A stretch of DNA of 64,000 nt from the human T2T-CHM13v2.0 reference genome, Homo sapiens, in NCBI RefSeq assembly GCF_009914755.1, contig NC_060942.1; one strand, written 5' to 3'. Shown here one piece after another: positions 3,919 to 44,294 of this stretch (positions within the stretch are counted from its first letter, which is position 1; each line of letters opens with the position of its first letter). Made by a program: the position numbers and the translations under genes. The notes under the pieces are model-generated. The model ran no database searches. It was not told the DNA's origin and saw only the letters and a program-made list of their open reading frames with translations.

Positions 3919-6349
3919 TAAACACACCTAAAAGAGCATAGTCTAAAGTGTCCAGCTTCAGTTCTTTTCAAGAAAAGTGAGGACATAAACATACTTGGGA
4001 GGAAATCTAAGTACAGGACACTTCTAGATTTTCATTGATTTTTCGAATCCATTGTTTTCTTACCATTTCCTATTTGGGGAGCAAAATCTTTTTTAGCAAT
4101 TTATCCTTGGGTCCTTTTCAAAGCATTCAACTTATTTTTCATAAAAACAATTATTCTTTTTTGTCCTACTTCATCAGTTCACCAGATATTCAAGTAAATT
4201 ATAAAACTAAAATGTAGAGTAGAACTGGTACACATCAGTTTGGGGAAAGCATGTAATTGATGGTTAATAAACACACAACCCAGTCATGTGAGAAGAGGAT
4301 CTGGGGTTCCAGAGAGTTAGCGTACTAGCTGTGGGATCCAGAGGCAGTGAGCATCACTCACAGATGTTATCAATGGCATCCATGCCATGGACACTAGAGA
4401 TTAATTTCAGAGAGCCAGTTAAATGGGAATCAGATGAAGAGTTTCTTTTGTAGATTTTGTGCTAGCTTGAAGGATAGCAGGATGGTAACAAATTGGTAGT
4501 GCTGTGAAACATGTTTACTGGCTATTTGAAAGATCATTAATTAGCAATATTAAACCATATGGGGTTTTGTTTAGGTTTTTGGTTGTTGTTGTTTTACATG
4601 TACAAGTCATTTATTTAGTAAACTTAAATTCCAGTGTGTACTCTAGGTAAACTTTCTTCTTTTATTTCAAATTTCCTGTAGCCTTCTTTTCCATCATTAC
4701 CACATGTGTTACAATGTTTATTTATTGTCTGTTTTCTATTAGAATCTAGGAGCAGTTGTGGGGTCAGAGACTATGCCTATTTGGATCACTATTGAATTTC
4801 TAAGGCCCACATCAGAGAGTCAATAAATATTTGTTTAATGAACAATTATATACAGTATTTTGTCCTTTCTAGGGCCAAGTTTCCAGTTCTCGGCAACTAT
4901 AATAGTTCTAAACCATCTGTTTACTAACAGTGTGCTTTCTGCAAAACAAACAGATAAAACCCCATTATATAACATTTACAGATATTTATGTCTTATCACA
5001 AGGTGATTTTCAATATAATTGGAAGGGTATGCTGAGACAATCCTCCTCAATAATCTGTGTTGTAATCAATATGCCTCCTTTCCTACTATGGAGCCCCCTA
5101 CCACTAAGAACAACAGACATTTAAATGTTGCTTTAAAATATGACTTTGAAAATGCTAATTTTATAATAAGCCTGAGGTTAATTTCCAGGCAGTAGCTGGA
5201 TCATTAATGACAGTTTTAATTAAAAAGTAAAAGCTTAACATGTGTAGTGATCAGTAATATATCATTATTTTACTATAGACAGTAAGAATTCATAAGAAAT
5301 GCCTATAGACAGAACTTGTTCTGGAACTTTATTTGTTAATATCAACTATTTACCCTTTTATTTTATGCTTTTAATAAATATAAATGAACAATAAAATGTA
5401 TCATGGCATTCTCAAAGACCTCTCAATCATGTACCAAAATATTTATTATATAAGATAACATAACATTTTATCATACAAATCTCTCATGTGTCTTTATAGT
5501 GGTTTTATTATCTAATTGTGCTCCACATAACAATCCCCTCTTCAGGCTGGAGTTCTTCAATCCTAATTCACATCACTGGGAACCTTTTCTTACCACCTCT
5601 CTTCCTCGTCCACAAATTCTTATATTTTTACTCCTTGCTGTCACATAACAGTTGCATCCCAAAGCCTCCTTTTATGTCAGAGTCATCCATTTATTCTTCC
5701 TTCATTCCTTATCTACATTTCTTCAAAAAAACACACTTTAAAGGAATAGCAAGGAAAGTAAAGTATATGTTCATTTTAGAGAGATTACTTTGAATTTTCT
5801 GAAAAATCCCAGCCTGGTAGAACACAAGGTTTGTGTCCCATGTGTGGTTGCTGGCATTTTTTGGTTTTGGGGTCTGCATCGAGACTTTGATTTAAGAACA
5901 TAAAATGCATAAGAAAAAAAAAATTTTATCCTTTCTTTCCCCAAGTCGTTAATATGATGCCAAATGACCAGGTCATGCAATGAGATTTTTTTTGAATCGT
6001 GACAAACATCTAAATCCTTCATCCTTTGTCAGGTAATCAATGTGTTAAAACATTTAAAAATCAAATAGGAGCATAAGAATAAAAAACAGAGAAATCCTCA
6101 AGTGTGATATTTAACATCATATTGTTCGTATGATACAAGGATAACCATTCAAACAATGTGAATAACAAATATGTTATTTTTAAAACAAGAGCCCACTAAC
6201 TGGAGCTTTTTTTTTTTTAGTTGAAATAATGACTGTAGCGAATCTGGTTTTGTTTATGATAAAATTGTTAAGTATCAGATAAGGTGAATGTGGTTTTTCA
6301 GGATCCCTGTTAGAAATTTAGACAGTGCGGACAGTAAATATGACAACAT

Positions 6350-6366
6350 GTTGCCACCTAGTGGAC
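6350..6366 (-). promoter_or_regulatory. Candidate CTCF binding site
   Basis: The minus strand reads GTCCACTAGGTGGCAAC, matching the CTCF core CCASYAGRKGGCR, in non-repetitive sequence. Confidence 0.65.
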
Positions 6367-6554
6367 ATTTCATAAAACGTCTAGACATCCAGGTTCCTGA
6401 AACAGTGTACGTATTTAGGATCCTGGAGTAGGGCTGAGGGGATCTTCTTAGATATTGTCTGTAGGGCTGTCTTGTTTCACACGATTAGTCTTGGCTCTAG
6501 ATGTATCAAAATTTTAACTGTAAACTCAAGGACTGAAATCAGAATGTAAAATGC

Positions 6555-6775
6555 CTAACGTTTATTGAGCATCTATTTTGTACTAAGCTGTGTGCTAAAA
6601 GCTTTAGCTGGATTATCTCATATGAGCCTCACAGCAACCCTGTTACTACATAACCACCCGCCCTTCCTGCAGATTAAGAAACCAAGGCAGGGGCCGATTA
6701 AGTGACTCACCCAAAGTCACTGGGCCCCAAGCTGTGGAACTGAGGCATGAATGGACTACCTGCCTTCGGAGCCCA
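6555..6775. mobile_element. MIR SINE
   Basis: MIR core text: tttattgagcatctattttgtac...ctcacagcaaccctg...gaaaccaaggc...taagtgactcacccaaagtcac. Confidence 0.8.
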
Positions 6776-7924
6776 GGTCCTCGTCGGAGCAGAAACCTTC
6801 CTCAGTTTATCACAGGCAAAACATTGGGACTGGACTTCACTGTATTAAATATGGCACGTTGGGGGTGGGGGGTGATATTAAGTTCTTTACTGAATGCGTA
6901 TGATCCTCGGAAGTGGCTCTAGGCTTCCAAGAAAGAAAACAAGAGGGCCAGTGTGTCCTCTCTGCTAGACTGAAGACAGCAGACACTCTTGTGGGGGGGA
7001 TCTGGGCAGCTCACTCCTTTACTCCTGCCTGACAAAGCATTGCCCATTTCCAGACTCGAACTTCAGTGGTCACTGTTTAAAGGATAAAACACTGTGATCT
7101 GGGAGGGCAACCCAGAAGCTGTGAATATTTGATCTAATTAACCTATTTCTGCCTGTCATTTCTGAGAAGGACCAGCACCTCTTGATGCAGTAATAGAAAG
7201 AGTTGTACTAAGAACTAGTAAATAAAGGAATTGTCCACAAAATTGGAGCTGGAATTTGCACATGGAATGAAGAAAAGAGAGATTGTACTTTCCTCCAGTG
7301 CTCCGCCACCCATATGCCCAAGCTTGAATTCGTAGTTATATTACAATGAATATTTCAGTCATTTAAAAGCTCCTTACCCTCTCCATAAGCCAACCATTCT
7401 GCCCATACAGGCTCCTAAAGATGCCAAAAGGGCATTTTTAAAAGTCTCTGGGCCCTCTGATGCTAGCACGATTCCAGGATCATGGTATTTATTCAATAAA
7501 TGATTGTTGGATGACTAAAATGCAACTCGGGATATCTAAAGTTAAATCCCTAAATATACAATTTAATGGTATGCTGGGCTTCACAAGTCCATTTTTGCTT
7601 AGCATTTGAAATGATGTAGGTGATGCTTTCCAAGATTTTGTGATATTGACTGGTAATTTATATCACCAAACAAAATTCGCAATTTGGAAATAAATAACTG
7701 GGTCTATCCTGATGAGGAATAATTACACTATATATACAAAATTTTAGGTTAATAAAATGGAAATGTAATTTAAAGGAGAAATGAAAACAAACAGACGTTA
7801 GGAGTCACCAACCTTCTTGGAAATCAGAAATCTGTGAATCTCCGGATATGCTTATATTCTTTGAAAAGAAGAGTCTAGTTTTTCCACTGAATCCACAAAG
7901 CTAGATTCTAGTATTCCTTAATAC

Positions 7925-43005: not shown

Positions 43006-43716
43006 TCTACACCATGTGCCTTCACACTGTTGCAAAAGCCCACTCCGAGTTTCTAACCCATCAACCTAGTTAGGAACCTTTATTCTGCCATCAAATGTGT
43101 GAGAGCTCTCTCTCAACCTCTTATCATGTTCAGGGGAAAGCAAAACTCAGGAAGACAAGTCACTCCTTCCCTCCATGGGGAGAAAAAGGAGGAAGAAAGA
43201 ACTCCCAGAGGAGAAAAGTTCCCTGGATCACCGGGCTCTTTTCTTCCTATCCACCATGACCACTGCTGGCAAAGAAAACCAGTACTCCTTGCTTTTGGTT
43301 TTAATGAGTTCTTGGAAACCCTTTTAAAATTTGAGTTGTCAAAAATCAGGCAATAAGTTTTTATAGAAATCATGTATCTGTTGAGAGTTATGTTCCAAAC
43401 CAAAAGTTTTGCCTTAAATAAATCATAGTTGTAATCAACTTTTAGGACACAAAGTGCAACTATAAAGCTTGATGTTAATCAGAATTCCTACAGTACACTC
43501 CAAGCACCAAAAATAGTCAGAAAATTCTCTGCATAATGGAAGGGAAACATTGTATTAAGTAGAGCATACATAACACATAAAAATTCAACTGGTTATAACA
43601 TCATTTTGAGCTACCAAAGCTGATCTTAATTAAAACAAAAAAAGTTTTTGCCTTCTTAACTTTATAGACTTTCTAGACTATATGAGTGACATAAGTTTGA
43701 AAAATGTCTCAGGGGA

Positions 43717-44175
43717 GTCCAGGCGTGGTAGCTCACACCTGTAATCCCAGCACTTTGGCAGGCAGAGGTGGGCAGATCACCTGCCCCCTCCGGCTGGGTC
43801 AAAGAAGGTAGTATTAAGGTTGCAGTCTGTTAATAGTATAGTAATGCCAGAGGTCAGGAGTTTGAGACCAGCCTGGCCAACATGGTGAAACCCTATCTCT
43901 ACTAAATATGTACATGTATATATACATATATATATATGTATATATATGTGTGTGTGTATGTGTGTGTGTGTATGTATACATATATATGAAGCTGGGTGTG
44001 GTGGTGGGTACCTGTAATCCCAGCTACTCAGGAGGCTGAGGCAAGAGAATCACTTGAACCCAGGAGGCAGACGTGGCAGTGAGCCACGATCACACCACTG
44101 CACTCCAGCCTGGGCAACGGAGTGAGCCTCCATCTCAAAAAAATAGAATAAAATATAAATATAAATAAATAAAAA
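43717..44175 (+). mobile_element. AluS (Sx-like) carrying a 67-bp NUMT and a (TA)/(TG) microsatellite in its linker
   Basis: The Alu reads continuously as GATCACCTG|AGGTCAGGAG once 43784-43850 is removed. The linker is replaced by TA/TG repeats (about 43906-43988). Degenerate TSD aaaaatgtctcaggg / aaaaagtcccaggg. Confidence 0.95.
43784..43850 (-). pseudogene. MT-CO1: Micro-NUMT: 67-bp fragment of mitochondrial cytochrome c oxidase subunit I
   Basis: The reverse complement CTGGCATTACTATACTATTAACAGACTGCAACCTTAATACTACCTTCTTTGACCCAGCCGGAGGGGG translates (vertebrate mitochondrial code) as [21 protein letters not shown]. This matches the conserved COX1 motif [22 protein letters not shown]. Confidence 0.95.
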
Positions 44176-44294
44176 GTCCCAGGGCAATATTGAATAAATG
44201 CCTTGTTTCCTCTTGGCCTATTTCTCAGTTACAACTGGAGGCATTCGAAAACACCTCGTGTCCTACCTCCCTCCCACTTCACATTTTCTGTTTG

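What the first reader, a model, noticed from the sequence alone, without database searches (positions are those of the whole stretch)
43784..43850. 67-bp mitochondrial COX1 fragment inserted cleanly inside an Alu
Seen: an AluS is split at GATCACCTG|AGGTCAGGAG with no Alu bases lost, no TSD and no poly-A. The insert's reverse complement encodes [21 protein letters not shown]. Established: this is the conserved COX1 segment near residues 205-226, and NUMTs are captured by end-joining at double-strand breaks. Against human mtDNA as I recall it (about 6514-6580) there are about 9 differences in 67 bp; 8 are synonymous and one is CGC>TGC (R>C) at a CpG. Inference: the insert preserves ancestral primate mtDNA plus nuclear CpG decay, and it is no older than the host AluS. 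Its size and position inside a masked repeat make it easy to miss in NUMT catalogues.
Basis: partly seen in the sequence, partly recalled or inferred. Interest (0 to 1): 0.8.

Follow-up and report, generated by a model that had tools for sequence, protein, structure and literature searches.

The report
Short mitochondrial COX1 fragment inside Alu
A 67-base piece of the mitochondrial COX1 gene was pasted long ago into a chromosome break in the middle of an Alu repeat on chromosome 18; it is a real but ordinary, already catalogued mitochondrial insertion with no sign of function.

Summary
Window 43784-43850 (minus strand) reads, under the vertebrate mitochondrial code, [21 protein letters not shown]. 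That is 20 of 21 residues identical to COX1 residues 205-225 (E 2e-7). It matches 13 other COX1-derived nuclear copies in the same genome. It splits one Alu exactly: the two Alu flanks abut directly in 6 of 12 other Alu copies in the window. The insert has no poly-A and no target duplication, and the whole Alu keeps its own target-site duplication.

The best explanation is end-joining capture of an mtDNA fragment at a double-strand break, blunt on both sides and without deletion. This is the commonest class described for numts (PMC2567098).

It is not new. A 2026 pangenome NUMT map lists it as numt_312, chrM:6504-6580, chr18:55223784-55223859, fixed. It is missing from two older catalogues.

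Against NUMTs dated by Tsuji 2012, it sits between a copy inserted after the rhesus split and a copy inserted before the orangutan split. Support for that placement is weak.

Interest is low.

The parts
43784..43850 (-). 67-bp NUMT: internal fragment of mitochondrial COX1 (residues 205-225; chrM about 6514-6580), boundary +-1 base
   Evidence: 20 of 21 residues to COX1, E 2.1e-7. (13 other nuclear COX1 copies, best 90%). (catalogue row numt_312, chrM:6504-6580, chr18:55223784-55223859).
43716..43783 (+). Host Alu, left monomer, part 5' of the break
   Evidence: aligns to 12 other Alu copies of the window at 78-90% identity.
43851..43905 (+). Host Alu, left monomer, part 3' of the break, up to the A-rich linker
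   Evidence: aligns at 78-93% identity to the same 12 copies. It is directly adjacent to the left piece in 6 of the 12.
43906..43985 (.). (TA)n/(TG)n microsatellite grown in the Alu's middle A-rich linker
   Evidence: (TRF rows 43906-43985, 43947-75).
43986..44136 (+). Host Alu, right monomer
   Evidence: read by eye. The hub's repeat mask covers 43845-44180.
44137..44175 (+). Degenerate A-rich tail of the host Alu
43700..43714 (+). Left target-site duplication of the host Alu (AAAAATGTCTCAGGG)
   Evidence: local alignment with 44171-44184, 13 of 15 columns identical with 1 gap.
44171..44184 (+). Right target-site duplication of the host Alu (AAAAAGTCCCAGGG)

Best explanation
A short double-stranded fragment of mitochondrial DNA, internal to COX1, was ligated by non-homologous end joining into a chromosomal double-strand break. 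The break lay in the left monomer of an already resident S-type Alu. Both junctions are blunt (at most 1 base of microhomology). No chromosomal base was lost and no filler was added. The copy has since drifted as neutral nuclear DNA, with one CpG-to-TpG change, and is fixed in humans.

Shown: identity, position, junction anatomy, catalogue entry and fixation.

Inferred: the repair pathway, by analogy with characterised numt junctions, and the date. The date is most likely after the Old World monkey split and before the orangutan split, with low confidence.
For: Identity and uniqueness:
- COX1 identity.
- The insert is unique. Only one 100% place exists in the genome, and the best other nuclear copy is 90% identical.

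Junction and host:
- Flanks abut in 6 of 12 paralogous Alus, and the other 6 differ only by a 2-base subfamily indel.
- One Alu with its own TSD spans the insert.
- There is no poly-A or TSD at the insert.

Literature:
- Passages of PMC2567098: of 90 human and chimpanzee numts, 54% integrated without deletion. Blunt x blunt was seen in 30 numts, with the lowest deletion rate (7 of 30).
- PMC13179385 Supplementary Data 3: reference, fixed, present in GRCh38.

Direct capture rather than a copy of a copy:
- The insert shares none of the non-synonymous or indel changes private to the nearest nuclear copies. These are L002 positions 28, 36, 58 and L005 positions 40, 47, 55.
- Its terminal branch in the ML tree is 0.015.

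Date:
- It shares the states of the dated copies of Tsuji classes b-d (L005, L002, L003) at positions 23, 44 and 59, and of L002 and L003 at position 47 (L005 has a gap there), against the class-a copy L015 and most of the other undated copies.
- The ML tree orders the copies as old clade (100), then L005 (class b), then the insert, then L002 (class c), L003 (class d) and L004. UFBoot for the two flanking splits is 66 and 86.
- Age classes come from PMC3467031 file 3 and Methods.
Against: - The empty orthologous site was not seen, because no primate genomes are on hand. 'No bases lost' therefore rests on paralogous Alu copies.
- The date rests on about 20 variable sites in 67 bases.
- Over 730 bases the four dated NUMTs give quartet patterns ab|cd 18, ad|bc 20, ac|bd 14. 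Homoplasy is therefore as strong as signal, and the bootstrap values are below 95.
- My matching of loci to Tsuji's hg18 rows is by chromosome, offset, length, strand and mtDNA range, not by liftover.
- A DNA donor cannot be told from an RNA-derived donor, because the fragment lies inside one gene.
Confidence: 0.9

Rival explanations
1. Secondary copy: the 67 bases were copied from an older, longer nuclear NUMT (templated patch or gene conversion at the break), not from mtDNA itself.
For: The genome holds many longer COX1 NUMTs covering the same stretch. The nearest, on chr2 (L002, about 730 bp), is 90% identical.
Against: No nuclear copy is closer than 90%. The insert shares none of the nuclear-type (non-synonymous or indel) changes of L002, L005 or L003. 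It differs from L002 at 7 sites, of which 3 are silent (codon position 3, or a Leu first position). It sits on the trunk of the tree with a very short terminal branch rather than as sister of one NUMT.
Confidence: 0.04
2. RNA-mediated patch: a piece of COX1 transcript was reverse-transcribed and used as filler in break repair.
For: The fragment lies wholly inside one transcribed gene, so DNA and RNA donors give the same sequence. Capture of cDNA at breaks is known from yeast experiments (recalled, not looked up here).
Against: There is no poly-A, no target-site duplication and no 3' end of the transcript. Numts in general span gene boundaries and non-coding mtDNA: the Tsuji list shows rows that cross the mtDNA origin (coordinates 16571 to 1). 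DNA capture is the established route (PMC2567098, PMC515365).
Confidence: 0.05
3. Chance similarity or assembly artefact.
For: None found.
Against: E 1e-16 against an independent NUMT in a 3.1-Gb search. All 24 PDB hits are COX1. The insert is listed as a reference NUMT, fixed, and present in GRCh38 in a study of 269 long-read individuals and 2504 short-read individuals.
Confidence: 0.01

Closest known systems
numt_312.chrM:6504-6580 in the 2026 pangenome NUMT map (PMC13179385, Supplementary Data 3, row 243)
   Same: The same locus. Its start, chr18:55223784, equals window position 43784. It is on the minus strand, from the reference genome, fixed, and present in GRCh38.
   Different: The catalogue end (55223859) runs 9 bases into the Alu. 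My own BLAST shows the same chance extension. The Alu sequence puts the true end at 43850. The paper's main text has 0 occurrences of 'Alu', so the Alu-internal position is not described there. Its age table (Supplementary Data 9) lies beyond what is held.
Blunt x blunt, deletion-free numt integrations of Hazkani-Covo and Covo 2008 (PMC2567098)
   Same: No chromosomal deletion, 0-1 base of microhomology at both fusion points, and no filler nucleotides. This is the commonest pattern in their 90 human and chimpanzee numts.
   Different: Their cases are lineage-specific, so an empty orthologous site was available for each. This insert is older, and its pre-insertion state is inferred from paralogous Alus.
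NUMTs lying within retrotransposons (Tsuji et al. 2012, PMC3467031)
   Same: A NUMT straddled by the two halves of one retrotransposon. They found only 10 such cases among 557 NUMTs within 1 kb of a retrotransposon.
   Different: This insert is not in their hg18 list: none of the 7 chr18 rows matches. It would therefore be an extra case of a rare class.
chr2 NUMT in hg18 chr2:50669330-50670057 (L002; mt 6271-6999; Tsuji age class c)
   Same: The nearest nuclear relative over the 67 bases: 60 of 67 identical.
   Different: It is about 730 bp long, lies at another locus, carries its own nuclear changes, and differs at silent sites. It is an independent capture.

Membership tests
NUMT (nuclear sequence of mitochondrial origin) | Significant similarity to mitochondrial DNA or its products | tested here: met
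   20 of 21 residues identical to COX1 205-225, E 2.1e-7. The ATA codon reads Met, as in COX1, only under the mitochondrial code. 13 other COX1-like nuclear copies match. A catalogue maps it to chrM:6504-6580.
NUMT (nuclear sequence of mitochondrial origin) | Embedded in nuclear chromosomal sequence | tested here: met
   It is flanked on both sides by one Alu on chr18.
NUMT (nuclear sequence of mitochondrial origin) | No hallmarks of retrotransposition (poly-A, target-site duplication) | tested here: met
   the junctions are Alu bases directly; no duplicated or missing Alu base.
Deletion-free blunt-end NHEJ capture (Hazkani-Covo and Covo 2008 classes) | No loss of chromosomal bases at the break | tested here: met
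   the flanks are adjacent in 6 of 12 paralogous Alu copies. The other 6 carry a 2-base subfamily difference. The orthologous empty site was not available.
Deletion-free blunt-end NHEJ capture (Hazkani-Covo and Covo 2008 classes) | Microhomology of 0-1 base and no filler nucleotides at both fusion points | tested here: inconclusive
   at most one shared G. All 67 bases align to other COX1 copies, so there is no filler. The donor mtDNA flanks at the time of capture are unknown, so microhomology is judged from later NUMTs only.
AluS host element | Dimeric Alu with linker, A-rich tail and target-site duplication | tested here: met
AluS host element | Subfamily-diagnostic positions (S rather than J or Y) | not testable with these tools
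   No Alu subfamily library (Dfam or RepeatMasker) is on hand. The junction carries the 2 extra bases that 6 of 12 window Alus lack. Assignment to AluS is from recalled consensus positions.

The most novel reading that the evidence does not exclude
Short, old, coding-derived NUMTs like this one differ from modern human mtDNA at many third codon positions. From my recalled mtDNA sequence (not tested), no exact word long enough to seed a standard search survives. If so, human-mtDNA-only searches miss them as a class. The reported scarcity of NUMTs inside retrotransposons (10 of 557) and the age spectra of older catalogues could then be partly ascertainment effects. This locus was missed in 2011 and 2012, and was found in 2026 by a search that also used five non-human primate mitogenomes. 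It would be one worked example.
Probability: 0.15. Interest if true: 0.35.

Novelty: already known. Interest (0 to 1): 0.12.

Why it matters
It matters little.
- It is one more fixed, neutral NUMT in a gene-free stretch. No gene is annotated in the window, and the two RefSeq enhancers lie elsewhere.
- It belongs to the rare class of NUMTs that split a retrotransposon.
- It is a homoplasy-free presence/absence marker that could be scored across apes and Old World monkeys.
- Older NUMT lists (RHNumtS.2, Tsuji 2012) lack it. Masks built from those lists will not cover this COX1-like stretch.
- The catalogue boundary is 9 bases too long.

Tried and rejected
1. Modern human mtDNA for the difference count.
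- The genome held has 24 contigs and no chrM.
- Four searches found no modern-like copy: the 67 bases, 701 bases of a longer NUMT, Pfam PF00115 and a degenerate codon pattern.
- I did not pursue it further and did not type mtDNA from memory. The '9 differences, 8 synonymous' claim and my idea that no long exact word is shared with modern mtDNA both remain recalled.

2. Pfam scan of the 21-residue peptide gave 0 families. The peptide is too short for the COX1 model.

3. The T2T NUMT list of PMC10671835 could not be checked. The held part of the zip contains only the accession list, with 0 occurrences of chr18. Whether that catalogue has the locus is unknown. Its Methods use human mitogenomes only.

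4. Supplementary Data 9 (lineage ages) of PMC13179385 lies beyond the stored cut.

6. Fine dating by site patterns. Parsimony on four ab|cd sites puts the insert between classes b and c. Over 730 bases, however, the conflicting quartet patterns are as frequent as the supporting one. I keep the date only as a weak best guess.

7. I considered that the two Alu halves come from two different Alus. I rejected this because the halves abut exactly and one TSD brackets the whole element.

Full report
**Observation**

The sequence at 43760-43860 reads ...gggcagatcacctg, then 67 bases, then aggtcaggagtttgagacc.... Translated from the minus strand with the vertebrate mitochondrial code, bases 43848-43784 give [21 protein letters not shown].

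A phmmer search of all PDB chains returned 24 distinct sequences at E<=10, every one a cytochrome c oxidase subunit 1. Bovine, ovine, mouse, pig and human chains match residues 205-225 at 20 of 21 positions (E 2.1e-7 to 3.2e-7). The single difference is Cys for Arg at residue 213. The Met comes from an ATA codon, which is Met only in the mitochondrial code. A Pfam scan of so short a peptide gave nothing.

At DNA level, the 67 bases have one perfect place in the 3.1-Gb assembly and 13 further matches (E 1e-16 to 1e-6, 80-91% identity). These are parts of longer COX1-like nuclear copies. The match is real and far beyond chance.

**The host and the junctions**

I ran BLAST with the left flank (43716-43783) and the right flank (43851-43905) separately against the window, then paired the hits. 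Twelve other Alu copies were found.
- In 6 of them, the base matching the end of the left flank is immediately followed by the base matching the start of the right flank.
- In the other 6, the copy is two bases shorter at that spot. I recall this as the Y-type junction.

So nothing was deleted or duplicated in the Alu.

One G (43783 or 43850) can be given to either partner, so each junction has at most one base of microhomology. All 67 bases align to other COX1 copies, so there is no filler.

The element is a single Alu. A 15-base target-site duplication (43700-43714 and 44171-44184, 13 of 15 columns identical) brackets the whole element, including the insert. The Alu has a degenerate A-rich tail and a (TA)n/(TG)n microsatellite in its linker. 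Calling it AluS rests on recalled consensus positions, because no Alu library was available.

**Mechanism**

The insert has no poly-A and no duplication of its own, is an internal gene fragment and has blunt junctions. That is the anatomy of numt capture by non-homologous end joining. In passages of Hazkani-Covo and Covo 2008 (PMC2567098):
- 54% of 90 human and chimpanzee numt integrations showed no deletion.
- Blunt repair on both sides (30 numts) had the lowest deletion rate (7 of 30).

Ricchetti et al. 2004 (PMC515365, passages) draw the same NHEJ inference from polymorphic human numts. The 'clean' insertion is therefore the usual outcome, not an oddity. The pathway is inferred by analogy. 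What is shown here is only the junction anatomy.

**Direct capture or copy of a copy**

The nearest nuclear relative is a 730-bp NUMT on chr2 (L002), identical at 60 of 67 bases. The site table gives these results:
- The insert carries none of the non-synonymous or indel changes private to L002 (positions 28, 36, 58) or L005 (positions 40, 47, 55).
- The insert differs from all three dated copies of classes b-d (L005, L002, L003) at a single site. Position 27 is T where they have C, followed by G. This is a CpG-to-TpG change that makes the R>C replacement, and it recurs independently in several other nuclear copies.
- Every other base of the insert is shared with at least one of those three copies.

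Its terminal branch in a maximum-likelihood tree is 0.015. This fits a frozen sample of the mitochondrial lineage plus one nuclear change. It argues against descent from any NUMT now in the genome.

**Is it known?**

- RHNumtS.2 (Simone et al. 2011, PMC3228558; I saw only its supplement 1) lists 7 chr18 entries in hg18. None lies between 46.45 and 57.69 Mb. My coordinate-string searches found nothing.
- Tsuji et al. 2012 (PMC3467031, file 3) lists the same 7 chr18 places, none with mtDNA coordinates near 6500.
- The 2026 pangenome NUMT map (PMC13179385, Supplementary Data 3, row 243) has numt_312.chrM:6504-6580, chr18:55223784-55223859, minus strand, source reference, type fixed, present in GRCh38.

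The start of that row is exactly window position 43784. The end is 9 bases inside the Alu. This is a chance extension that my own BLAST reproduced.

[quoted passage not shown] The earlier lists used human mtDNA.

From my recalled human sequence, the differences fall at third codon positions so regularly that no long exact word is shared. That would explain the earlier misses better than the Alu context does. I could not test this. Two facts point the same way:
- Both older lists contain other 66-70-bp entries.
- Another short COX1 copy (L006, chr2 near 15.55 Mb, about 116 bp) is also absent from Tsuji's chr2 rows, which jump from 9.80 to 19.30 Mb.

The T2T catalogue of Tao et al. 2023 could not be checked, because only an accession list is held.

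**Context**

Tsuji et al. report that only 10 of 557 NUMTs within 1 kb of a retrotransposon lie inside one (P about 1e-21). The 2026 paper says fixed NUMTs are rarely in or near transposable elements. This insert thus belongs to an uncommon class, which is its only mildly unusual feature.

**Date**

Four longer NUMTs covering the same stretch can be matched to Tsuji's rows and age classes. The matching used chromosome, a consistent coordinate offset, length, strand and mtDNA range.

| Locus | Chromosome | Age class | Meaning |
|---|---|---|---|
| L015 | chr5 | a | before the rhesus split |
| L005 | chr17 | b | after rhesus, before gibbon |
| L002 | chr2 | c | after gibbon, before orangutan |
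| L003 | chr5 | d | after orangutan, before gorilla |

Evidence from the site table:
- The insert has the same state as all three class b-d copies at positions 23, 44 and 59, and as L002 and L003 at position 47 (L005 has a gap there). The class-a copy L015 and most of the other, undated copies differ at these sites.
- It agrees with classes c and d against a and b at positions 18 and 29.
- It agrees with classes a and b against c and d at positions 15 and 41.

An IQ-TREE analysis used 19 NUMTs over about 730 bases plus the insert. It gives an old clade (UFBoot 100) that excludes the insert. The order is then L005, then the insert, then L002, L003 and L004, with UFBoot of only 66 and 86 for the two splits around the insert.

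Against this, the four dated NUMTs over 730 bases give quartet patterns of 18 (ab|cd), 20 (ad|bc) and 14 (ac|bd). Homoplasy is as strong as signal.

I therefore hold the following:
- Firmly: the insert is younger than its Alu and falls outside the old clade, which holds the class-a copy L015.
- Weakly, at about even odds: it was captured after the Old World monkey split and before the orangutan split.

Fixation in 269 long-read and 2504 short-read individuals is from the paper.

**Verdict**

The locus is already catalogued, and the mechanism is the standard one. No gene or annotated element is touched. Interest is low.

Noticed in passing
window 43906-43985: The host Alu's middle A-rich linker has grown into an 80-base (TA)n/(TG)n compound microsatellite (TRF periods 2, 10, 12, 14). 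It is likely to be length-polymorphic.
   Followed up: partly
PMC13179385 Supplementary Data 3, row 243, against window 43851-43859: The catalogue's end coordinate for this NUMT runs 9 bases into the Alu, through chance similarity between the Alu and the neighbouring COX1 bases. BLAST against other NUMTs shows the same over-extension.
   Followed up: yes
G000 searches: The assembly as held has 24 contigs and no mitochondrial contig. No near-modern COX1 nuclear copy appeared in any of the four searches, although I recall that a very young, long NUMT exists near the start of chromosome 1 in human references. I did not look further.
   Followed up: no
L006 = G000:C2:15551116-15554175 (match at 15552616-15552675): A second short COX1 NUMT (about 116 bases) is also missing from Tsuji's 2012 hg18 list. 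This suggests that short old NUMTs in general were under-called in older catalogues.
   Followed up: partly
L025-L038 (acrocentric short arms and pericentromeres of chr13, 14, 15, 21, 22, 1, 3, 4, Y): One old COX1 NUMT is present in many near-identical copies on acrocentric short arms and pericentromeric regions (76% to the chr17 query). Copies vary between C and T at the same CpG that mutated in the insert.
   Followed up: no
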